Source: a virus
Taxonomy: Duplodnaviria; Heunggongvirae; Uroviricota; Caudoviricetes
DNA length: 64,000 nt
Reading direction: 5' to 3' (one strand)
IMG/VR virus record: IMGVR_UViG_3300031414_000001
Location: 304,437-368,436 of that record
In this document: piece after piece, positions 29,938 to 56,653 of the stretch
How the letters are laid out: the number at the start of each line of letters is the position of its first letter
Numbering within the stretch: the stretch's first letter is position 1
The notes under the pieces: model-generated
Databases searched by the model: none
The model's input: only the letters and a program-made list of their open reading frames with translations
What the model was told of the DNA's origin: nothing
Program-made: the position numbers and the translations under genes

Positions 29938-29957
29938 AAGAGTACCTTAAAAGTTAG

Positions 29958-30030
29958 TACACCGTATCCGGCTTGAACGGATGACCTCGGAGTTAAAAGC
30001 TCCTTGCTCTACCAACTGAGCTAACGGTGC
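29958..30030 (-). tRNA. trnK: tRNA-Lys(UUU)
   Basis: cloverleaf, AGGAG-CTTTTAA-CTCCG. Confidence 0.92.
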
Positions 30031-36129: not shown

Positions 36130-36144
36130 TTTGAGAATAAAGAC

Positions 36145-36208
36145 TAGAATCTATTATTTTGGGTTTTCAAGATAAGTGAAATAAAATAGTGTTTGCTGTT
36201 AGATTCTA
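36145..36208 (-). ncRNA. CAGCAA-stem element, minimal
   Basis: TAGAATCTA/TAGATTCTA stem, ACAGCAAAC bulge, TTTCA-7nt-TGAAA hairpin. Confidence 0.75.
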
Positions 36209-36214
36209 AATTTG

Positions 36215-36541
36215 TTATTTGGTCTTAAGTTCTGCTACTACAGCAGCAACTAAGTCCGGTGTAAAATCAATGCCGAAAACTTCGGAATAATGTTTTACTG
36301 TACCTTCATAACCATGACGCTTTTCATTCAAGCGATAACGCAATTCCATAATCGCATTGTCATAGTTAAACCAAGGATTGTTTTGACTCGCATTCAAGCG
36401 ACCCCAATCAGTCAATGGTACGAAACCTTCATCAGCAGACTTACCCCGAAGAATATTATAGATAATATGCTCGTGTACAGTGTGCTCTTTTTCCAGTTTC
36501 CAGGTTGTTTTTACAGTAATGAATTGTTCTTTGGTCAACAT
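36215..36541 (-). CDS. hypothetical protein
   Basis: ORF with AAGGA RBS. Confidence 0.8.
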   Translation of the reverse strand: MLTKEQFITVKTTWKLEKEHTVHEHIIYNILRGKSADEGFVPLTDWGRLNASQNNPWFNYDNAIMELRYRLNEKRHGYEGTVKHYSEVFGIDFTPDLVAAVVAELKTK

Positions 36542-36660
36542 AGTATGTTCCTTTTGGATAGTAATTAATTTAGTGTTTTGTTCTGAATTAACTTTATCCG
36601 GTGGACCAGTACTGAATTTCTATAGCATCATAAGATTTACCTTTTGTTTGTTTATGTTAG

Positions 36661-36742
36661 AGCGGGATACAGGATTTGAACCTGCGTAAACTATTCGCCG
36701 CCTGCTTGGAAGGCAGGTGCTCTACCACTGAGCTAATCCCGC
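36661..36742 (-). tRNA. trnG: tRNA-Gly(UCC) with 15-nt variable region
   Basis: cloverleaf GCGGGAT/ATCCCGC, U73, anticodon TCC. Confidence 0.85.
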
Positions 36743-36890
36743 TAGGATGTACTGCCGCTCTCAGTACTGTATATACTTGATTATTACAATCTGACCTATA
36801 CAGGTGCATCGCGGTTCTCGTCATATAATTTTACAAGCTGGGAGAATCATTCAAGCTTGTTTCACACAGGAAGTAATGAAATCTTTAAAT

Positions 36891-36965
36891 TGGCAGGCCG
36901 GAGAGGGTTCGAACCTCTGATCCGAGAATCAAAATCTCGTGTGTTACCAATTACACCACCAGCCT
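36891..36965 (-). tRNA. trnQ: tRNA-Gln(UUG)
   Basis: cloverleaf with G73-CCA. Confidence 0.93.
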
Positions 36966-36969
36966 AATC

Positions 36970-37015
36970 AAGAATCTATATATTATTCAACCGTTTTACT
37001 TGCTGGAAGATTCTT
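36970..37015 (-). ncRNA. CAGCAA-stem element, minimal (46 nt)
   Basis: AAGAATCT/AGATTCTT stem with CAGCAA. Confidence 0.65.
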
Positions 37016-37062
37016 TGTAATATTTGGATTACATATTATTAAACCATCCAAATATCACTTTG

Positions 37063-37134
37063 CGGTAAAGGGGAATTTCGAAATCCCGACCATCTCCTTA
37101 ACAGGGAGCCGCTCTGCCTCTGAGCTACAATACC
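37063..37134 (-). tRNA. trnN: tRNA-Asn(GUU), mismatched acceptor stem
   Basis: anticodon loop CTGTTAA; two U.U pairs in acceptor stem. Confidence 0.75.
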
Positions 37135-37208
37135 AAGTTGTTGTTTTTCTTACTTATATTATACCACATTTTTTAGTGGCGTTTCATCTTTTTTTCAAAG
37201 AAATAGGC

Positions 37209-37270
37209 TGGAATCCATTTTGATTTTTCAATTAACAGTTGATTTCATTTATGGTTGCTGCTGGATTCCA
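37209..37270 (-). ncRNA. CAGCAA-stem element with Asn-like anticodon loop
   Basis: TGGAATCCA/TGGATTCCA; TCAA-CTGTTAA-TTGA. Confidence 0.75.
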
Positions 37271-37294
37271 AATTCGGTTTTATTCAATTAAAGC

Positions 37295-37349
37295 TAGAAT
37301 CTATTTTTGTTTTCTATATCCGAGAAGTTTTAATTGCTGGTAGATTCTA
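37295..37349 (-). ncRNA. CAGCAA-stem element, minimal
   Basis: TAGAATCTA/TAGATTCTA; TTCT-CGGATAT-AGAA. Confidence 0.75.
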
Positions 37350-37473
37350 AATGAGTACAAATTGAGTTTACAGAAGTCCTTCCAAGGGACTAATACGTAT
37401 TCTATTCTGACCTTAGTAGGATAACATGCTATCCGTGTCACACCATAGTACGCCTGGTGAATTTGATTAATAC

Positions 37474-37588
37474 TGGAATTTATTTCGTTTTAGGCGGCTG
37501 CTCTCCCAACTGAGCTACAGTACTAGTACTGACAGGACTCGAACCTGCGACATGCTGCGTGATAGAAAGTGTTTGCTGTTAAATTCCA
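37474..37588 (-). ncRNA. circularly permuted tRNA-like RNA (YrlA/Y-RNA-like) with CAGCAA stem
   Basis: order T arm, acceptor 3' strand CAGTACT, acceptor 5' strand AGTACTG, D arm, all enclosed by TGGAATTTA/TAAATTCCA. Confidence 0.85.
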
Positions 37589-37605
37589 AATTTGTTACTA
37601 ACGCA

Positions 37606-37746
37606 TTAACGTTTAGGTTGATGCGGGTTGTTACGATTCAAAGTTTCATAACTATGATCGTTACGGCGTGAATGATGTGGATTATTACGATTCAACGTTT
37701 CGTAACTATGGTCATTGCGTTTTGAACTATGAGCATTGCCTGACAT
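37606..37746 (-). CDS. 46-aa peptide with 18-aa tandem repeat
   Basis: RNDHSYETLNRNNPH twice; synonymous differences between DNA copies; AAGGTG RBS. Confidence 0.65.
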   Translation of the reverse strand: MSGNAHSSKRNDHSYETLNRNNPHHSRRNDHSYETLNRNNPHQPKR

Positions 37747-37756
37747 ATTATCACCT

Positions 37757-38017
37757 TTATAGTTGAAGGTAAGGATTATAGTTCGGATCACTGAATATGT
37801 CGTACTCTTTATGTTTACCATCCACAATAGTGTAGAAAGTAAAATTGACAGAGTTATATGATTTACGGTCATCTTCTAAGTATATTGAAGTACTAGAACC
37901 ACCGATATTCACACGATTCACAACATAATAATGATCAGAATCTAACGCTAATGCGTTTATTCTATCACTTTCGTAACCAGCGTTAAGCTCAGTTACTTTA
38001 GCATATAAAATATCCAT
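37757..38017 (-). CDS. hypothetical protein
   Basis: ORF. Confidence 0.75.
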   Translation of the reverse strand: MDILYAKVTELNAGYESDRINALALDSDHYYVVNRVNIGGSSTSIYLEDDRKSYNSVNFTFYTIVDGKHKEYDIFSDPNYNPYLQL

Positions 38018-38035
38018 ATCTTACCTAATTAATAC

Positions 38036-38171
38036 AAGAATTCATCGTTTATTGGATAGCCGTGTCTACCAGTTTCACCATCACTATTCGTACTGACATA
38101 GTTCGTAGGACTCGAACCTACACGCCATAAGGCCGCTATTTGGGTTAACATTTAGTTGCTGTTGAATTCTT
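38036..38171 (-). ncRNA. circularly permuted Leu-type tRNA-like RNA with CAGCAA stem
   Basis: ATAGC + long variable arm GCC-TTAT-GGC + T arm, closed acceptor, Leu-type D arm, GCTAT; ends AAGAATTCA/TGAATTCTT. Confidence 0.8.
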
Positions 38172-38257
38172 TAAGTTCTTGTTGTAGTACGTTATAGGCT
38201 TACTGATTCATCCAAAGTGCTACCTATTGTGTTGGATAATTTCACAGTACTACTTAG

Positions 38258-38330
38258 TGGGAATAGCTGGACTCGAACCAGCGGCGACTCGATTATCGGT
38301 CGAGCATTCTACCAACTGAATTATATTCCC
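38258..38330 (-). tRNA. trnI: tRNA-Ile(GAU)
   Basis: cloverleaf; loop CC-GAT-AA (C33). Confidence 0.9.
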
Positions 38331-38342
38331 ATATAATGCCTG

Positions 38343-38579
38343 TTACCAGGCATAATCACCAGTGCCGATGTAACAAGCTTTGTTACAATGACCACTCATG
38401 GCATCAAGTACATCGTTAAGTTCTTCGATACGTGGATCATCATCTTCCATGTCAAAGAACACATAAGTCAGTGCTTGATATAAATCAATGTTATTTGAAC
38501 GTTCATTTGAATCAACAAATTTACGAACAGCTTCGTGCATATTAGCACTATTCAGGATTTCATCTACGATGGTTTCCAT
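38343..38579 (-). CDS. hypothetical protein
   Basis: ATG 38579; C-terminal SGHC...IG motif. Confidence 0.7.
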   Translation of the reverse strand: METIVDEILNSANMHEAVRKFVDSNERSNNIDLYQALTYVFFDMEDDDPRIEELNDVLDAMSGHCNKACYIGTGDYAW

Positions 38580-38583
38580 AGTA

Positions 38584-39042
38584 TCACCTACAAGGATATG
38601 GTACAATGTTATGATGTTCTCTAAGAAATTCTATGCTATGATTAACTTTCATCATATCTTCGAAGTACTTAACGAACTCGCGTAACCGTGTTACAAATTC
38701 GTAACTGAACGGAACTTCTTTTAACGTACTTAATTGGAAGTGCCATTCCTCACTTATACTGTAAGGAAAACCATTGACTTTGAATAAATCTTCATCGTCT
38801 TCATCCCAATAATGTACGTTGAACCTGTTTGATAACAAGTCAACTACTATTGAAAGGGTGTTATCCTTTTCGTCCGACAAATAAAAATGGATTATCCCAT
38901 CTCGTGAAGAATAATGATCATTGTCATTAAAAACCACAGTATTAGATAATCCATTAATATTCGATCTACATCGTTCCGGTACATGTAATAACGAAATGAG
39001 ATATTCTTCTCCAATTTCGTACAACACATCGTATTTGCTCAT
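38584..39042 (-). CDS. hypothetical protein, EExxFQxxT family
   Basis: SEEWHFQLSTLKE. Confidence 0.75.
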   Translation of the reverse strand: MSKYDVLYEIGEEYLISLLHVPERCRSNINGLSNTVVFNDNDHYSSRDGIIHFYLSDEKDNTLSIVVDLLSNRFNVHYWDEDDEDLFKVNGFPYSISEEWHFQLSTLKEVPFSYEFVTRLREFVKYFEDMMKVNHSIEFLREHHNIVPYPCR

Positions 39043-39273
39043 TTAGAATGAATCCGGTTTTGCTACGCTCCGTACTGCCGACATGAAACCTTTTTGGAGG
39101 TCAGTCTTGGCAATCGCCAGCCAACGTTTATCAATATCAGGATGATCTTCAAGTGCTTCGATCATATCTCCGACTTTAGCAGCTAAGTCCTTAATTGCGT
39201 TCATCGCATTAATTTCTTGCTGATTAAGATCTCGATACCCTTTAATTTGTTTGTGTTGATTATCCATAATCAT
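39043..39273 (-). CDS. acb2: Acb2/Vs.4-like anti-CBASS cyclic-nucleotide sponge
   Basis: MDNQHKQIKGYRDL...MNAIK...RWLAIAKTDLQKGFM..VR.VAKPDSF matches the recalled Acb2 hairpin sequence. Confidence 0.9.
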   Translation of the reverse strand: MIMDNQHKQIKGYRDLNQQEINAMNAIKDLAAKVGDMIEALEDHPDIDKRWLAIAKTDLQKGFMSAVRSVAKPDSF

Positions 39274-39291
39274 TATCTCTCAATTAAATGC

Positions 39292-39349
39292 TGGAATCCA
39301 CAAGGTCAAAGTAAAAGTTTGATTTTTGTGTGGTTGCTGGAGGATTCCA
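39292..39349 (-). ncRNA. CAGCAA-stem element with Lys-like anticodon loop
   Basis: TGGAATCC/GGATTCCA; TCAAA-CTTTTAC-TTTGA. Confidence 0.75.
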
Positions 39350-39355
39350 AATTCT

Positions 39356-39571
39356 TTATTCTACGTAGCCGATAAAGCCAACGTGTTCTTTAACAGTACT
39401 TTTCTTCTTGGTTTCTTCGTCATGAACTTCACGTTCAAAAACTACTGGTTCCAATAGAACAACTGCTTTTTGTGCTCCGAAGATATTGCTAACTTGTTCG
39501 TCATTCAATTCTTCAGCACTAGTATGACGACGCAAAGCACCATCTACTTTGTAGTAGTAATCGTAAAACAT
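39356..39571 (-). CDS. hypothetical protein
   Basis: ORF. Confidence 0.7.
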   Translation of the reverse strand: MFYDYYYKVDGALRRHTSAEELNDEQVSNIFGAQKAVVLLEPVVFEREVHDEETKKKSTVKEHVGFIGYVE

Positions 39572-39590
39572 TTTTTCTTCCTTGTGTGAT

Positions 39591-39687
39591 TGGCGGTAAA
39601 GAGAGGATTTGAACCTCCGAGGCTAGGGATTACCTAACCTGGCCGCTTTCCAGGCGACTGCATTAAGCCAAGCTCTGCCACTTTACC
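39591..39687 (-). tRNA. trnS: tRNA-Ser(GGA)
   Basis: class II cloverleaf, G73-CCA. Confidence 0.95.
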
Positions 39688-39744
39688 ATGTTCGTTGTAT
39701 GGCTTCAACTTTATTTAGTAATTTTAAACACTAAATTAAAAAGC

Positions 39745-39804
39745 TAGAATCTATAATCTTTGTTTTCACCAATTGAATAAGAGTATGTTTGCTGTTAGAT
39801 TCTA
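39745..39804 (-). ncRNA. CAGCAA-stem element, minimal
   Basis: TAGAATCTA/TAGATTCTA, ACAGCAAAC, TGAAAAC. Confidence 0.75.
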
Positions 39805-39806
39805 TG

Positions 39807-39928
39807 CGAGAAAGGTTGGACTCGAACCAACGACCAGGCCATTAAAAGTGGATGAAGTATGGTTGCTGAGAAATTACAGTACTGTAATTTTGGGTTTCTA
39901 CCTGCTCTACCAACTGAGCTACTTTCTC
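39807..39928 (-). tRNA. tRNA(UUU)-like gene with 49-nt CAGCAA insertion in anticodon stem
   Basis: removing the insert restores GGCCA-CTTTTAA-TGGCC and a 73-nt cloverleaf. Confidence 0.75.
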
Positions 39929-39939
39929 ATAAATTTTTA

Positions 39940-40015
39940 GGGGCAAGGAATGGAGTTGAACCATTTCCAGGATCAGTGGCATCTCCAGTGTTTTATCACT
40001 CAGAAGACAATGCCC
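39940..40015 (-). pseudogene. degenerate tRNA-like sequence
   Basis: T arm AATGG-TTCAACT-CCATT, GGGCA/TGCCC ends, non-canonical D and anticodon arms. Confidence 0.45.
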
Positions 40016-40118
40016 ATTGGGTAATTAAGTTCCTCAAGCCTCTACTAAGTTATAGTTCCCTATAGATGAATATAACGTTCGCTTTCTGCGGCCTCTAATG
40101 TGCCTATCCTTAATTACT

Positions 40119-40209
40119 TGGAGGAAGATGTGGGATTCGAACCCACGGAGGGCTATTAACCCCCTCTAGTTTTCAAGACTAGTGCAATCGGCCTCTCTGC
40201 CAATCTTCC
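40119..40209 (-). tRNA. trnS: tRNA-Ser(UGA)
   Basis: class II cloverleaf with CCA, anticodon TGA. Confidence 0.93.
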
Positions 40210-40239
40210 AAAAAAGTACTTCACAGTACTTTGTACGCT

Positions 40240-40395
40240 GGATTCTCTATTAATTGAGCAACTACCTAGCACGGCTCAATATAACTAATTATTATCTCCC
40301 TAGTTACCAGGTGGACACGAAGGGAGTTTTACGTCCGAGTATCCAATCTCATTATTTGATAGATTTTAAGATTTTATGTGTTGCTGTCAGAATCC
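40240..40395 (-). ncRNA. CAGCAA-stem element with large non-tRNA distal domain
   Basis: GGATTCT/AGAATCC stem, ACAGCAAC, internal CTCCCT/AGGGAG and ATTGAGC/GCTCAAT helices. Confidence 0.6.
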
Positions 40396-40423
40396 GAGTG
40401 CTAATTCGGTTTTAATTAAAAAC

Positions 40424-40529
40424 AAGAATCGTTGTTTTCTATCCCCACAACCAGTGGTAAATCGGAATTGAACCGAAGGTGTTTTTCGCCAAATGAAATA
40501 TAAAGAGTTATGTTTGCTGGACGATTCTT
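40424..40529 (-). ncRNA. permuted tRNA-like RNA lacking D arm, CAGCAA stem
   Basis: AAGAATCGT/ACGATTCTT; T arm TTCGG-TTCAATT-CCGAT; closed acceptor hairpin. Confidence 0.7.
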
Positions 40530-40533
40530 TTAG

Positions 40534-40604
40534 CGTTCCCAACGAGGTTCGAACTCGTGTTGCCTGAGTGAAAGTCAGGTATCCTACCGCTAGATGATGG
40601 GAAC
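40534..40604 (-). tRNA. trnE: tRNA-Glu(UUC)
   Basis: cloverleaf, anticodon TTC, G73. Confidence 0.95.
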
Positions 40605-40606
40605 AA

Positions 40607-40771
40607 TTATTGTTTATCAGGCTCTTTCAATGTCCATTCGGTACTTTTCTCTGTACTTTTGGTCACTTCAAAACCTAATTCGGACATTACTTCAGGTAGG
40701 TTATTGTTATTGTTATCAATACCACTCAGGATACGACGAACAATTACCATGTTTTCTTCTGCTGATGCCAT
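40607..40771 (-). CDS. small hypothetical protein
   Basis: start corrected to ATG 40771 (AAGGA RBS). Confidence 0.65.
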   Translation of the reverse strand: MASAEENMVIVRRILSGIDNNNNNLPEVMSELGFEVTKSTEKSTEWTLKEPDKQ

Positions 40772-40796
40772 TTTGTTATCCTTTATTGAAGGAACT

Positions 40797-40913
40797 GAAA
40801 TCTTTGTTTTTCTGGACCCAATCACAGCCTACATAGCAACAAGGCTGCTGCGGATTCGAACCGCACCGTTTTTTTCGCATAAAAAATAATTGTTTTATTT
40901 GCTGTAAGATTTC
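40797..40913 (-). ncRNA. permuted tRNA-like RNA, CAGCAA stem
   Basis: GAAATCTT/AAGATTTC; T arm TGCGG-TTCGAAT-CCGCA; closed CAGCCT/AGGCTG. Confidence 0.7.
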
Positions 40914-40960
40914 GTGTTGCTAATACTTTTATTATACCACAAATTTTTGATTCGTTTCAT

Positions 40961-41440
40961 TTATTTTTGAAGAATTTTCAAGTACTCACCGTACCAGTAT
41001 TCAGTACCGTGACCATATCGTTTCTTCAACATAAAGCACAATTCATCTACATTTGAATGGTATTTCATGAATTCTAATACATGAATATTATCACAATTTC
41101 GTTCAGTACTGGAAAGTTTCAAGGGTTCAGTGGAAATTGCTTCACAATGATGTGAACCAATTTCTTGTACAATGTTTTTCCAGCATGATGAATCATGGTC
41201 ATGTGTTGGATCAATTTCATTAGCCAACGCATGAGCAATTTCATGTAAAATTATACTACGAACATCACGATAGATAACTGATTTTGCTACAAAGCTATCT
41301 AACGATATTATCTTTTCCGAAGATTGACAATATCCTAAAACGCGGGTTTCACCCTTTATGATTTTATCATGGAGCTTAAATTTCCAATCATATAAACCAT
41401 GCTTATTCATATAATGATAAGCCATTTTATATATGTTCAT
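40961..41440 (-). CDS. SprT-like zinc metalloprotease
   Basis: LGYCQ...IILHEIAHAL...H...WK. Confidence 0.8.
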   Translation of the reverse strand: MNIYKMAYHYMNKHGLYDWKFKLHDKIIKGETRVLGYCQSSEKIISLDSFVAKSVIYRDVRSIILHEIAHALANEIDPTHDHDSSCWKNIVQEIGSHHCEAISTEPLKLSSTERNCDNIHVLEFMKYHSNVDELCFMLKKRYGHGTEYWYGEYLKILQK

Positions 41441-41463
41441 AACTAATCTCTTAATTAAGATCA

Positions 41464-41585
41464 GGAATCTTGTTTTATCCAGCACCAAGCTCCCACTATT
41501 TGAATAAGGCATATGTTCGTGGGTGGGGATTCGAACCCCGTCGTTTCGTTTTCATCAAAAGGTTTATTTTTTGCTGTAAGATTCC
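41464..41585 (-). ncRNA. permuted tRNA-like RNA, CAGCAA stem
   Basis: GGAATCTT/AAGATTCC; GGGG-TTCGAAT-CCCC; CCCAC/GTGGG; mini D arm AGC-TTGGT-GCT. Confidence 0.75.
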
Positions 41586-41628
41586 GATGCCTTATGTTCT
41601 ATATTATACCAGAAATTTTTCTTCCGTT

Positions 41629-42051
41629 TCAAATATTTTTCAAAACATCAGAAAGAAATTGACCAGGTTCAAGTTCGATATAATCTGATTCATCATACTG
41701 TAACTCGAATATAAAGTCATCCCAATTTTCTTCAAGATAATGAATAAAACTTTCAGGAGAACCACGTTCGCGATACCGCTCAATGTATTCTTCAGATAAA
41801 TCAACTTCAGGGTATACGTTAGTGTACTTCATACCAACGGTTTGTAATAGTTTTCGTACTGATTCATGAGTACTGATCAGTATATACTCATAACCATCAT
41901 TCTCAGCATCAATAATAGCCTGAAGATAATTCAATGGAAATGTTTGTATTCTACTATAAGCAGAACTATCTAAGTCAATTACCTTATCATTGTTCTGTAC
42001 TACAGTGGTTTTCCCAATACCAGGAAAACCACAAATAATCTTAGCTGCCAT
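41629..42051 (-). CDS. P-loop nucleotide kinase-like protein
   Basis: IICGFPGIGKTT, IDLDS. Confidence 0.7.
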   Translation of the reverse strand: MAAKIICGFPGIGKTTVVQNNDKVIDLDSSAYSRIQTFPLNYLQAIIDAENDGYEYILISTHESVRKLLQTVGMKYTNVYPEVDLSEEYIERYRERGSPESFIHYLEENWDDFIFELQYDESDYIELEPGQFLSDVLKNI

Positions 42052-48344: not shown

Positions 48345-48618
48345 TCGGGAGTACCTTCTTCACGGAGTTAATTGTGCTTTCAACAACATTACCGATTACT
48401 TTGTCCAGTTTAGACATTTCACCAGATTCATAATGATACTTTGGTTTACCATCTTTACCGAGTACCGTGTAACGATCATAAGTCGTCGGATTGATAGACT
48501 TAGATGATTGTTCACGAGCAACAGCAGGGTCAACCATAGTTACACCCGTATGAGTGTAATCTTTCAGACTTTGTACTTTCTCTTTAAAGTACTTTTTCAG
48601 TTCTTCGACAATATACAT
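48334..48618 (-). CDS. hypothetical protein
   Basis: ORF. Confidence 0.75.
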   Translation of the reverse strand: MYIVEELKKYFKEKVQSLKDYTHTGVTMVDPAVAREQSSKSINPTTYDRYTVLGKDGKPKYHYESGEMSKLDKVIGNVVESTINSVKKVLPNAS

Positions 48619-48635
48619 AATATATCCTCAATAAG

Positions 48636-48752
48636 CGGTGAGTGCAGGAATCGAACCTACGGCTTCGGCGTGAAAGGCAATTGTATTGATTGCTGTTAGA
48701 TTCAGTACTGGAATCCATTTTTTACGCTATTTTACCACTAAACTAACTCACC
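48636..48752 (-). tRNA. tRNA(UUC)-like gene with 46-nt CAGCAA insertion
   Basis: acceptor GGTGAGT/ACTCACC G73; insert 48679-48724 = GATTC-CAGTACT-GAATC + ACAGCAA; loop CTTTCAC. Confidence 0.7.
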
Positions 48753-49760: not shown

Positions 49761-49829
49761 TTCTGTACCCTCATTGATTAAGAGATAGTACTATATCATA
49801 CCGCTTCGTTCCCGTCAAGGAAAATTTAG

Positions 49830-49906
49830 TGCAAGGGGATGGACTCGAACCATCGACACGGAGTTATACTAAGATAATCTTGCTCTACCGTCTGAGCTAC
49901 CCTTGC
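49830..49906 (-). pseudogene. tRNA with aberrant enlarged anticodon arm (TAG-like loop)
   Basis: perfect acceptor, D and T arms; 21 nt instead of 17 in the anticodon arm. Confidence 0.65.
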
Positions 49907-50216: not shown

Positions 50217-50429
50217 TTATACCTCGACTTCTTCCAGATATTCCATTTCTTCATCACTGAAGAAACAACTATCAGAAACAGCTTTGCCATTTTTGGCGAT
50301 ATAGTAGAATCCATCTTCTTCGATTAATTCTACACCAGTAGTATTCAGTTCTGGAAAATGCTTAAGTAAGTCATCAGCACCGAATACTGTACTCATAAAA
50401 CCATCTAAATCTTTAATTTTAAATGTCAT
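50217..50429 (-). CDS. hypothetical protein
   Basis: ORF. Confidence 0.7.
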   Translation of the reverse strand: MTFKIKDLDGFMSTVFGADDLLKHFPELNTTGVELIEEDGFYYIAKNGKAVSDSCFFSDEEMEYLEEVEV

Positions 50430-50444
50430 ATGTATTCCAATTTG

Positions 50445-50556
50445 TAGAGAGGGCAGGATTCGAACCTGCGTTACGTTCGTATGAATGAAATTTATGGATG
50501 CCGTAAGATTCCATCTGGAATCGCTTTACGTGTCCTAGCCGCTAGACGACCTCTCT
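50445..50556 (-). tRNA. tRNA-like gene with 39-nt CAGCAA-variant insertion
   Basis: acceptor AGAGAGG/CCTCTCT; insert GATTCC-AGAT-GGAATC + ACGGCA; 8-nt loop ATTCATAC after excision. Confidence 0.65.
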
Positions 50557-56473: not shown

Positions 56474-56580
56474 ATAGTGTTTGGTGAGAAAGGTTCAGGC
56501 TACCTTGAATAGAATACAGGACTTAAGTGCAAGTTGCTGAACTCTTACACACCCTCATTTCATCGGTTCTTTCTCATTTG

Positions 56581-56653
56581 TGGCTCATACCAGATTCGAA
56601 CTGGTGTGGACAGAGATTTAGAGTCTCCCGCTACGCCTCTCAGCTAATGAGCC
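56581..56653 (-). tRNA. amber suppressor tRNA (anticodon CUA)
   Basis: intact cloverleaf GGCTCAT/ATGAGCC, GGAGA-CT-CTA-AA-TCTCT, canonical T arm. Confidence 0.92.

What the first reader, a model, noticed from the sequence alone, without database searches (positions are those of the whole stretch)
37474..37588. Perfectly permuted tRNA with zero-nucleotide acceptor loop
Seen: T arm, then CAGTACT joined directly to AGTACTG (a 14-bp palindrome), then a canonical D arm. The 3' half precedes the 5' half. This fits YrlA topology. Alternatively, ligating the ends and cutting at the acceptor junction, as for permuted tRNAs of red algae and archaea, would give a linear tRNA like 39807.
Basis: partly seen in the sequence, partly recalled or inferred. 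Interest (0 to 1): 0.8.

Follow-up and report, generated by a model that had tools for sequence, protein, structure and literature searches.

The report
Sealed tRNA mimic on phage Y-RNA handle
This is a conserved ~118-base small-RNA gene of a giant phage in which a rearranged tRNA body with a sealed acceptor end hangs on a "handle" that, across many phages, travels with a Ro60-shaped RNA-binding protein, so it is most likely that protein's partner RNA and not a working tRNA.

Summary
On the minus strand (37590-37473) a canonical T arm, the 14-nt palindrome CAGTACT|AGTACTG and a canonical D arm lie in permuted order inside a 9-bp closing stem.

- **Conservation.** Orthologs exist in at least 9 Mimasvirus and Eneladusvirus jumbo phages, with compensatory changes in three helices.
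- **The "zero loop" is derived.** Relatives close the acceptor hairpin with TTCG, ATCG or TAAT, and CBB with about 30 nt.
- **Not a tRNA gene.** The anticodon position is not conserved, there is no discriminator or CCA, and the phage has no splicing endonuclease.
- **Part of a family.** It is one of at least 12 neighbouring RNAs sharing a stem, ACAGCAA and an A-rich tract.
- **A Ro60-fold protein is present.** Pfam TROVE is absent, but a DUF2828/DUF7788 protein matches Ro60 (Z 21.2). Its gene lies beside an RNA ligase, 164 kb away.
- **Handle and protein co-occur.** Near DUF2828 genes in 73 other viral loci, the handle signature occurs 97 times on the gene's strand against 3-13 in controls.
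- **Independent model.** A covariance model built only from those foreign RNAs ranks this element first in the window (47.8 bits, E 7e-7).
- **Family status.** It fails YrlA's own criteria: 41.9 bits against a cut-off of 69, no GNCGAA motif, and no adjacent TROVE gene.

The scan has reported this handle family before on other DNA. I found it neither in Rfam nor in the papers I searched.

The parts
37473..37590 (-). Whole element: handle plus sealed, circularly permuted tRNA body (about 118 nt)
   Evidence: Sequence. Orthologs in 9 phages. Top hit of the independent model R2 in the whole window: 47.8 bits, E 6.7e-7, full length.
37581..37589 (-). Closing stem P1, 5' strand (UUGGAAUUU)
   Evidence: Pairs with 37481-37473. 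The innermost pair changes U-A to C-G in relatives. The same stem covaries among paralogs in the window.
37573..37579 (-). Unpaired ACAGCAA handle motif directly after the P1 5' strand
   Evidence: CAGCAA is invariant in all 9 orthologs. It is also invariant in 31 handle RNAs next to DUF2828 genes of unrelated phages.
37554..37558 (-). GCAGC: 3' strand of the anticodon-stem equivalent
   Evidence: Pairs with GCCGC at 37498-37494. Two of its pairs show compensatory changes. A central A.C mismatch is kept in 7 of 8 distinct sequences.
37532..37548 (-). T arm (GCAGG / TTCGAGT / CCTGT), preceded by a 5-nt variable region at 37553-37549
   Evidence: Aligned to the YrlA T stem-loop. One pair changes C-G to U-A.
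37518..37531 (-). Acceptor-like hairpin: the 14-nt palindrome CAGTACT|AGTACTG. It folds as 5 bp plus a CUAG loop.
   Evidence: Relatives insert TTCG, ATCG or TAAT, or about 30 nt, between the two strands. A further 371-kb relative has CAGTACTTGTACTG.
37500..37515 (-). D arm (GCTC / AGTTGGGA / GAGC), preceded by U8 and A9 at 37517-37516
   Evidence: Invariant stem in all orthologs. Aligned to the YrlA and tRNA D arm.
37494..37498 (-). GCCGC: 5' strand of the anticodon-stem equivalent
37473..37493 (-). A-rich joiner (CUAAAACGAAAU) and P1 3' strand (AAAUUCCAG)
   Evidence: An A-rich tract before the 3' strand is shared by the family.
36144..41587 (-). Cluster of sibling handle RNAs among the tRNA genes.
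- Minimal: 36209-36144, 37015-36970, 37271-37208, 37350-37294, 39350-39291, 39804-39745.
- With a T arm and sealed acceptor hairpin: 38171-38036, 40529-40424, 40913-40797, 41585-41464.
- Handle inserted into a tRNA-Lys: 39928-39807.
   Evidence: Pattern and stem scans. Independent models R1 and R2.

Best explanation
The element is a small non-coding RNA built like a Y RNA of the YrlA type. Its 5' and 3' ends pair into a short stem that carries an unpaired ACAGCAA (the "handle"). The rest is a tRNA body (anticodon-stem stub, variable region, T arm, acceptor stem, D arm) whose acceptor end is sealed into a hairpin and whose anticodon loop is replaced by the handle.

The handle is most likely the docking site for the phage's own Ro60-fold ring protein. 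That protein is DUF2828 plus DUF7788 and is encoded at 176,259-177,773 of the same genome, next to an RNA ligase gene.

The sealed tRNA body would then be displayed as a non-chargeable tRNA look-alike. It would either recruit a tRNA-recognising enzyme to the particle or soak up a tRNA-targeting factor during early infection.

**Shown here:** the structure, its conservation and covariation, membership of a handle family that co-occurs with DUF2828 genes, and the Ro60 fold of the protein.

**Inferred:** that the protein binds the handle, that the RNA accumulates as a discrete species, and what the tRNA mimic does.
For: **Structure and conservation**
- Permuted but complete tRNA body.
- 30 pairs, 96.7% paired, 4 compensatory pairs across 8 distinct orthologs.
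- Relatives seal the acceptor hairpin with tetraloops.

**Family context**
- At least 12 siblings with the same stem, ACAGCAA and A-tract lie on one strand among the tRNA genes.

**The protein**
- DUF2828 (PF11443) plus DUF7788 (PF25043) is present.
- The AlphaFold model from 72 sequences has pLDDT 90.6 and pTM 0.89.
- Foldseek's top 13 PDB hits are all Ro60/TROVE.
- VIA-align gives Z 21.2, rmsd 4.1 A over 422 residues to Ro60 entry 1YVR. Hits covering only the vWA domain reach about Z 10.

**Co-occurrence in seven Rak2-like jumbo phages**
- The window's phage, GAP32, BF and 7t3 have both the protein and handle RNAs.
- RaK2, 121Q and PBECO4 have neither.

**Co-occurrence elsewhere**
- In 73 viral loci whose DUF2828 protein is 40-47% identical, a strict handle signature occurs 97 times on the gene's strand, in 49 loci.
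- Controls: 13 on the opposite strand, 5 and 3 in reversed sequence.
- Mycobacteriophage Gabriela has three ACAGCAA RNAs directly after its "Ro-like RNA binding protein" gene.

**Independent models**
- R2, built from 12 foreign handle-plus-permuted-tRNA RNAs, ranks this element first in 64 kb (47.8 bits, E 6.7e-7). The four sibling long forms all rank among its top seven hits.
- R1, built from 31 foreign minimal RNAs, finds the minimal siblings.

**RNA-repair setting**
- An RNA ligase gene (PF09414) lies directly upstream of the DUF2828 gene here, in GAP32 and in 7t3. A CCA-adding enzyme gene lies about 4 kb away.
- This echoes the rsr-yrlBA-rtcBA logic of Salmonella (PMC4201824, PMC7790460).

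**Literature**
- The Ro60-like gp130 of phage Bas63 counters the Ppl defence. Its authors guessed that some neighbouring "tRNA genes" are Y RNAs (PMC11482910).
Against: - No binding or expression data could be obtained.
- In this genome the protein gene is 164 kb from the RNAs, so the link rests on co-occurrence, not adjacency.
- The seven Rak2-like genomes represent few independent gains or losses.
- Several of the 73 loci are near-duplicates.
- The Ro60 likeness is a fold match to a predicted model at 10-15% identity. Sequence searches did not reach Ro60.
- The handle differs from the GNCGAAN0-1G motif that YrlA uses for Rsr, so the binding mode may differ.
- The minimal-RNA model R1 does not score this long element.
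- Many siblings lie just upstream of small ORFs or abut tRNAs. That also fits a cis role in transcript processing or stability.
Confidence: 0.68

Rival explanations
1. A true circularly permuted tRNA gene. The transcript ends would be joined and the acceptor junction cut, as in red algae and archaea, to give a working linear tRNA.
For: The 3' half precedes the 5' half, and the swapped sequence is a perfect cloverleaf body. The phage encodes a T4 Rnl1-type ligase and a second RNA ligase. M. smegmatis YrlA, which has a 7-bp acceptor stem, is cut by RNase P and receives CCA (PMC4201824).
Against: - There is no discriminator or CCA, and no spacer at the junction. Relatives seal it with TTCG, ATCG or TAAT.
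- The 7 nt at the anticodon position differ among orthologs while the body is constant.
- No tRNA-splicing endonuclease and no RtcB is encoded.
- Sibling RNAs share the handle but carry only a T arm, or no tRNA part at all.
Confidence: 0.03
2. A cis-acting element of the early polycistronic transcripts. It would be a tRNA-like punctuation mark or 5'-end stabiliser, recognised by host RNase P or RNase E, acting without the Ro60-like protein.
For: Siblings end 15-20 nt before ORF starts or lie 2-4 nt from tRNA ends. Strong extended -10 promoters sit just upstream of two siblings. This element follows an ORF closely in every relative.
Against: This does not explain the invariant ACAGCAA or the strand-specific co-occurrence with DUF2828 genes across unrelated phages. 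It also does not explain why the same handle is inserted inside a conserved tRNA-Lys.
Confidence: 0.12
3. The handle is a protein-dependent splice or cleavage-ligation signal. It would be removed from the interrupted tRNA-Lys to give a normal tRNA, and from this element to give a small circular tRNA-like RNA.
For: The handle occurs in circularly permuted form inside tRNA-Lys(UUU) at 39928-39807. Taking out 49 nt restores a 5-bp anticodon stem and a CUUUUAA loop. The split stem covaries across the insert (G27-C43 becomes C-G in pEa12). RNA ligases are encoded, one beside the DUF2828 gene.
Against: No endonuclease candidate was identified. For this element, excision by analogy would leave only about 4 nt closing the stem. 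A second, uninterrupted tRNA-Lys(UUU) exists at 29957-30030. There are no read data.
Confidence: 0.08
4. An inert remnant: the junction of two decayed tandem tRNA genes, or a recombination scar.
For: Dimeric tRNAs are a known false positive for YrlA-type searches (PMC4201824). My own pattern scan also picked up three tRNA dimers.
Against: The two acceptor strands are mutually complementary. There are no flanking tRNA halves. The element is conserved with compensatory changes across two phage genera. The same design recurs in unrelated phages.
Confidence: 0.02

Closest known systems
YrlA, the tRNA-like Y RNA bound by bacterial and mycobacteriophage Ro60/Rsr (Rfam RF02553; Chen et al. 2014, PMC4201824)
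   Same: Both have ends paired into a stem with a conserved motif on the 5' side. Both have a central module in the order T arm, closed acceptor-like hairpin, D arm, with tRNA tertiary-contact bases. Both come with a Ro60-fold protein and RNA-repair genes in the same genome.
   Different: - The handle motif is ACAGCAA, not GNCGAAN0-1G.
- The score is 41.9 bits against a cut-off of 69, covering only the tRNA-like block.
- The partner candidate is DUF2828/DUF7788, which the TROVE Pfam model does not detect, and its gene is 164 kb away rather than within 4 kb.
- The element is one of a dozen or more handle RNAs per genome, carrying different tRNA pieces.
Class I non-coding RNAs of dictyostelid social amoebae (Aspegren 2004; Fragrep pattern in PMC5054030; Kjellin et al. 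2021, PMC7919456)
   Same: Both have a short covarying stem joining the 5' and 3' ends, a conserved motif ending in ACAGCAA right after the 5' strand (search pattern GTTGRCCTTACAGCAA ... GTCAACTG), a variable interior, and a 3' end reading ...CUG.
   Different: Class I RNAs are eukaryotic, 42-65 nt, and driven by a DUSE promoter. Their reported binding protein is an RRM protein (Rnp1A). No tRNA-like module has been described in them. Common descent was not tested here.
Circularly permuted tRNA genes of Cyanidioschyzon merolae and some archaea
   Same: The gene order is 3' half then 5' half, with the two acceptor strands adjacent.
   Different: Those genes have a spacer that RNase P and RNase Z process. 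Their termini form a bulge-helix-bulge for the splicing endonuclease, and they have a functional anticodon loop. None of these is present here.
Ro60-like gp130 of Felix O1-type phage Bas63 (PhageMaP preprint, PMC11482910)
   Same: A phage protein with the Ro60 fold, encoded beside the tRNA gene cluster. Felix O1-type phages carry homologs of the protein found here at about 38% identity.
   Different: That work shows a counter-defence phenotype against Ppl and only guesses at partner RNAs. No RNA family was defined, and I did not check that gp130 itself is the DUF2828 homolog.

Membership tests
YrlA (Rfam RF02553) | Central module in the order T arm, closed acceptor-like hairpin, D arm, with tRNA-like conserved bases | tested here: met
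   cmscan aligns model positions 24-84 to 37555-37497. ARAGORN draws a cloverleaf after swapping the halves.
YrlA (Rfam RF02553) | Reaches Rfam's gathering score over the full model | tested here: not met
   41.9 bits against 69, a local match to 61 of 114 positions.
YrlA (Rfam RF02553) | GNCGAAN0-1G motif near the 5' end (PMC4201824) | tested here: not met
   The 5' part, 37590-37555, reads stem, then A-ACAGCAA-ACAC... and contains no GNCGAA. The only CGAA is on the 3' side and is AGAA in most orthologs.
YrlA (Rfam RF02553) | Encoded within about 4 kb of a TROVE-domain Ro60 ortholog, on the same strand | tested here: not met
   PF05731 finds nothing in the complete 371-kb genome. The Ro60-fold DUF2828 gene is on the same strand but 164 kb away.
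YrlA (Rfam RF02553) | Bound by Ro60/Rsr and carries dihydrouridine and pseudouridine made by DusA and TruB | not testable with these tools
   Needs immunoprecipitation and modification mapping.
ACAGCAA-handle RNAs that accompany DUF2828 proteins (unnamed; defined here by models R1 and R2) | Covarying stem joining the two ends, unpaired (N)ACAGCAA directly after its 5' strand, and an A-rich tract before its 3' strand | tested here: met
   for this element. for 31 foreign members: 6 of 8 stem pairs are compensatory and 94.7% of cells are paired.
ACAGCAA-handle RNAs that accompany DUF2828 proteins (unnamed; defined here by models R1 and R2) | Scores with a covariance model built only from members in unrelated phages | tested here: met
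   R2 gives 47.8 bits, E 6.7e-7, full length, the best hit in the window. The minimal-form model R1 does not score it, because of the roughly 65-nt insert.
ACAGCAA-handle RNAs that accompany DUF2828 proteins (unnamed; defined here by models R1 and R2) | A DUF2828/DUF7788 gene in the same genome | tested here: met
   Presence and absence match in seven Rak2-like phages.
ACAGCAA-handle RNAs that accompany DUF2828 proteins (unnamed; defined here by models R1 and R2) | Lies within a few kb of the DUF2828 gene, as in 49 of 73 sampled loci | tested here: not met
   The distance is 164 kb. Here the RNAs lie in the tRNA island instead.
Circularly permuted tRNA genes | 3' half encoded upstream of the 5' half | tested here: met
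Circularly permuted tRNA genes | Processable junction (spacer, discriminator, CCA or a site for its addition) and a conserved anticodon loop after end-joining | tested here: not met
   The junction is 0 nt, or a tetraloop in relatives. The anticodon-position heptamers differ among orthologs.
Circularly permuted tRNA genes | Bulge-helix-bulge at the termini and a splicing endonuclease | tested here: not met
   PF01974 and RtcB are absent from the genome. The termini form a plain 9-bp stem.
Dictyostelid Class I RNAs | Short end-joining stem plus the 11-nt motif CCUUACAGCAA next to its 5' strand | tested here: inconclusive
   The stem is present, and 7 of the 11 motif bases (ACAGCAA) match the pattern printed in PMC5054030. 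No homology test was possible.
Ro60 / TROVE proteins (for the candidate partner protein) | Helical-repeat ring plus vWA domain, Ro60 fold over the full length | tested here: met
   Foldseek E 2e-10 with TM up to 0.60. VIA-align Z 21.2 over 422 residues. This is a predicted model, pLDDT 90.6.
Ro60 / TROVE proteins (for the candidate partner protein) | Matches the Pfam TROVE model or Ro60 by sequence | tested here: not met
   PF05731 gives no hit. phmmer and a profile against PDB sequences do not reach Ro60.

The most novel reading that the evidence does not exclude
The ACAGCAA handle marks a second, widespread class of Ro60-type particles in phages. In this reading the DUF2828 ring displays interchangeable tRNA pieces: sealed bodies like this one, anticodon stem-loops of Lys, Asn, Tyr and Gln type, and a whole tRNA-Lys. 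They would serve as decoys or repair adaptors against host tRNA-cutting defences. The neighbouring RNA ligase could re-seal cut decoys, which the closing stem would hold together. The same handle in Dictyostelium Class I RNAs would then point to an old RNA-protein partnership shared by phages and eukaryotes.
Probability: 0.2. Interest if true: 0.85.

Novelty: new variant of a known kind. Interest (0 to 1): 0.66.

Why it matters
Y RNAs and Ro60 are well studied in animals and in a few bacteria, but what the tRNA-like part of bacterial Y RNAs does is still open.

This element belongs to a family that appears undescribed. I found it neither in Rfam nor in the papers I could search. The family pairs a different handle with a Ro60-fold protein that standard domain models miss. 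Homologs of that protein occur in about 700 sequenced phages, including Felix O1, KVP40, Listeria, Campylobacter and mycobacterial phages.

The family offers natural variants in which the tRNA part is whole, halved or sealed, which makes the role of tRNA mimicry directly testable. It also explains several mis-annotated or unannotated stretches in jumbo-phage tRNA islands.

Tried and rejected
- **"No Ro60 partner".** The Pfam TROVE search of the genome was negative, and I first read that as no partner. I revised this after the DUF2828 search and the fold match.
- **Single-sequence AlphaFold.** The model was unusable (pLDDT 43.6). Only the model built from an alignment was used.
- **Sequence links to Ro60.** Searches of PDB with the protein and with its family profile gave nothing relevant.
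- **Known RNA families.** Permissive cmscan over 37150-38250, which holds four family members, reported only YrlA and a sub-threshold tRNA match, both to this element, plus a sub-threshold AgvB match elsewhere. No self-cleaving ribozyme family matched. I rejected a hammerhead or hairpin-ribozyme reading of CAGCAA...GAAAC: there are not enough stems and no Rfam hit.
- **Sigma-54 promoter.** This reading of TGGAAT...CAGCA was rejected because the GG-to-GC spacing is one base short and the inverted repeat covaries.
- **MITE-like mobile element.** Rejected because changes in the two arms are compensatory both between copies and between orthologs.
- **Parent tRNA.** No single parent was found among the phage's own tRNAs. 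The best match is only generic class I similarity.
- **IMG/VR pattern scans.** The scan for the T-arm/palindrome/D-arm pattern found only Rak2-like relatives and three tRNA dimers. The 17-mer handle scan gave mostly chance single hits, with true elements only in Rak2-like contigs.
- **Model R1.** It does not reach this long element.
- **Supplementary tables.** Those of Chen et al. 2014 are not held.

Full report
**What is there.** The window comes from a 370,971-bp Rak2-like jumbo phage. Its nearest records are Xanthomonas phage XbC2 and Erwinia phage Kaldavass. It holds 28 tRNA genes, all on the minus strand.

The finding also lies on the minus strand. Reading 37590 to 37473 the parts are:
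- a 9-bp closing stem (UUGGAAUUU with AAAUUCCAG)
- an unpaired ACAGCAA
- a 14-nt joiner
- GCAGC
- a 5-nt variable region (AUGUC)
- a T arm
- CAGUACU joined directly to AGUACUG
- U8 and A9, then a D arm
- A26, then GCCGC
- an A-rich joiner and the other stem strand

The tertiary-contact bases of a class I tRNA are all present. When the halves are swapped in silico, ARAGORN draws a regular cloverleaf. The palindrome cannot pair fully within one strand, and RNAfold gives 5 bp with a CUAG loop.

**Conservation.** blastn finds the element, unannotated, in 21 phage records of the genera Mimasvirus and Eneladusvirus. I aligned nine of them: the window, XbC2, Kaldavass, fHe-Yen9-04, fHe-Yen9-03, BF, pEa_SNUABM_12, GAP32 and CBB.
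- Of 30 proposed pairs, 96.7% of cells are paired.
- Four pairs changed on both sides: one in the closing stem, two in the anticodon-stem stub and one in the T stem.
- No shuffle of 500 reached the observed pairing or covariation score. Slid controls gave 18-44% pairing.
- The acceptor hairpin carries a loop in the relatives: TTCG in GAP32 and pEa12, ATCG in BF, TAAT in the Yersinia phages and about 30 nt in CBB.
- Only the window, XbC2 and Kaldavass lack a loop. A fourth 371-kb relative has CAGTACTTGTACTG.

The "zero loop" is therefore a recent loss of four bases from a sealed hairpin, not a processing junction.

**Why it is not a tRNA gene.**
- The heptamer that would become the anticodon loop differs among orthologs (CUAAAAC, CUUAAAA, CUAUAAA, CCACACA), although the body is nearly invariant.
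- There is no discriminator base and no CCA.
- The genome has no tRNA-splicing endonuclease and no RtcB. It does have a T4 Rnl1-type ligase.

**The family in the window.** A motif search and a stem scan show at least 12 elements between 36144 and 41587. All are on the minus strand and share a closing stem built around GAAU/AUUC, an unpaired (N)CAGCAA after the 5' strand, and an A-rich tract before the 3' strand. The stems differ between copies by compensatory changes.
- Six are minimal (46-66 nt). Some hold a small hairpin with an anticodon-like loop, for example CUGUUAA at 37271-37208 and CUUUUAC at 39350-39291.
- Five, including the finding, enclose a T arm and a sealed acceptor-like hairpin, with or without a D arm.
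- In 39928-39807 the handle is circularly permuted and sits inside the anticodon stem of a tRNA-Lys(UUU). That insertion is conserved in XbC2, pEa12, GAP32 and CBB, and the split stem covaries across it.

**The protein partner.** My first search for a Ro60 ortholog with Pfam TROVE found nothing. Notes from earlier runs of this scan on other genomes said that CAGCAA-handle RNAs travel with a Ro60-like DUF2828 protein. I tested that lead.
- *The gene.* PF11443 finds a 504-aa gene at 176,259-177,773 of this genome, on the same strand as the RNAs but 164 kb away. Pfam gives DUF2828, DUF7788 and a weak vWA match.
- *The fold.* An AlphaFold model from a 72-sequence alignment is confident (pLDDT 90.6, pTM 0.89). 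Foldseek's 13 best PDB matches are all Ro60/TROVE structures: frog, human, Deinococcus Rsr and Thermus phage phiLo (E down to 2e-10). VIA-align gives Z 21.2, rmsd 4.1 A over 422 residues to 1YVR, about twice the score of hits to the vWA domain alone. Sequence methods do not see the relationship.
- *The neighbours.* An RNA ligase gene (PF09414) lies directly upstream, and a CCA-adding enzyme gene lies about 4 kb downstream. The ligase-DUF2828 order is the same in GAP32 and in Salmonella phage 7t3.

**Does the handle go with the protein?** I made three tests.
1. *Rak2-like phages.* The window's phage, GAP32, BF and 7t3 have DUF2828 and handle RNAs. RaK2, 121Q and PBECO4 have neither.
2. *Unrelated viral contigs.* I fetched 73 contigs whose DUF2828 protein is only 40-47% identical, with 6 kb on each side. 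A strict signature was used: stem of at least 7 pairs, 1-3 nt, CAGCAA, an A-tract, at most 200 nt. It occurs 97 times on the gene's strand, in 49 loci. Controls gave 13 on the other strand and 5 and 3 in reversed sequence. Many copies lie directly before or after the gene. Some loci are near-duplicates, so the counts overstate independence.
3. *Models built only from those foreign RNAs.* R1 (31 minimal RNAs, 6 of 8 stem pairs compensatory) finds the window's minimal elements. R2 (12 RNAs with handle plus T arm, sealed hairpin and D arm) ranks the finding first in the whole 64-kb window at 47.8 bits, E 6.7e-7, full length. The four sibling long forms all rank among its top seven hits.

Foreign members seal the acceptor hairpin with GAAA or GUAA tetraloops, the same design as here. 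Mycobacteriophage Gabriela has three ACAGCAA RNAs directly after its annotated "Ro-like RNA binding protein" gene, and Rfam's YrlA model does not see them. tblastn finds homologs of the protein in 700 phage records.

**Comparison with what is known.** YrlA (Chen et al. 2014, PMC4201824) is defined by three features: a T / acceptor-like / D module, a GNCGAAN0-1G motif near the 5' end, and a position within about 4 kb of a TROVE Ro60 gene on the same strand. The finding meets the first and fails the other two. It also scores below Rfam's gathering score. It works like a YrlA but is not a member.

The handle matches the search pattern published for Dictyostelium Class I RNAs, GTTGRCCTTACAGCAA ... 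GTCAACTG (PMC5054030; PMC7919456). I could not test whether that reflects common descent.

A preprint on phage Bas63 reports that its Ro60-like gp130 counters the Ppl defence system. It guesses that some neighbouring tRNA genes are Y RNAs (PMC11482910). A jumbo-phage survey mentions TROVE proteins with a tRNA-like partner as an RNA-repair platform (PMC7824862). I found no paper and no Rfam family that describes the ACAGCAA handle RNAs of phages.

**Mechanism.**
- *Shown:* the fold of the RNA, its conservation, its family, the Ro60 fold of the protein, and their co-occurrence.
- *Inferred:* the ring protein binds the stem and ACAGCAA. This rests on analogy with Ro60, which mainly contacts the 5' strand of the Y RNA stem, as cited in PMC4201824. 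The sealed tRNA body is then displayed to a tRNA-recognising factor.
- *Reasoning on the sealed end:* because the acceptor end is closed and lacks CCA, the mimic cannot be charged, and enzymes that act on the CCA end cannot modify it. It would therefore act as an adaptor or a non-consumable decoy.
- *Setting:* the ligase and CCA-enzyme neighbours of the protein gene, and the tRNA pieces carried by sibling RNAs, point to tRNA surveillance, repair or counter-defence early in infection. The tRNA island is the predicted early region in phage CBB (PMC5259590).
- *Open:* which of these roles applies.

**Verdict.** The YrlA-topology reading is right in architecture, and the permuted-tRNA-gene reading is not supported. 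The element is a member of a widespread, apparently undescribed handle family linked to a Ro60-fold DUF2828 protein. This scan has reported that family before on other genomes.

Noticed in passing
window 39807-39928 (minus): tRNA-Lys(UUU) whose anticodon stem is interrupted after position 28 by a 49-nt circularly permuted copy of the handle (hairpin AAAUUACAG-UA-CUGUAAUUU, then CAGCAA). The insert is conserved in XbC2, pEa12, GAP32 and CBB. The split stem covaries across the insert. An uninterrupted tRNA-Lys(UUU) also exists at 29957-30030.
   Followed up: partly
window 37208-37271 and 39291-39350 (minus); also loci L184, L223, L227: Minimal handle RNAs carry small hairpins with anticodon-like 7-nt loops. 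Here they are CUGUUAA (Asn-like) and CUUUUAC (Lys-like). In unrelated phages they are CUUUUAA, CUGUUAA, CUGUAAA and CUUGUAA (Lys, Asn, Tyr and Gln types).
   Followed up: partly
window 37420-37462 (minus): Two further hairpins just downstream of the element (CACCA...UGGUG and GGAUA...UAUCC) are conserved in Yersinia phage fHe-Yen9-04. Kaldavass annotates a 46-aa ORF there.
   Followed up: no
G000 178,250-178,852 and 172,085-172,447 (outside the window): An RNA ligase gene (PF09414) lies directly upstream of the DUF2828 Ro60-like gene, and a CCA-adding enzyme gene about 4 kb downstream. The ligase-DUF2828 order is the same in GAP32 and Salmonella phage 7t3. In 7t3 the DUF2828 gene is annotated "structural protein".
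   Followed up: partly
window 41603-41632 and 40931-40960 (minus): Strong extended -10 sigma-70-type promoters (11 of 12 and 10 of 12 matches, with TG) end about 15-20 nt before the closing stems of the handle RNAs at 41585 and 40913. These two probably start their own transcripts.
   Followed up: no
window 50405-50513 and 48590-48698 (minus): Further weaker hits of model R2 (26.5 and 22 bits). The second overlaps a tRNA-like gene that holds a GAAUCUAACAGCAA insert, seen.
   Followed up: no
window 49829-49906 and 56580-56653 (minus): ARAGORN reports a tRNA with a four-base anticodon (ttag) and a tRNA with anticodon CTA, a possible amber suppressor.
   Followed up: no
L235 5471-5730 (Mycobacterium phage Gabriela): Three ACAGCAA handle RNAs lie in the 370-nt gap after the annotated Ro-like RNA binding protein gene. 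The middle one holds an Asn-type anticodon loop, a T arm, a sealed acceptor hairpin and a D arm. None is annotated, and Rfam gives no hit.
   Followed up: partly
window 37620-37740: A roughly 60-nt unit is repeated in tandem within the ORF just upstream of the element.
   Followed up: no
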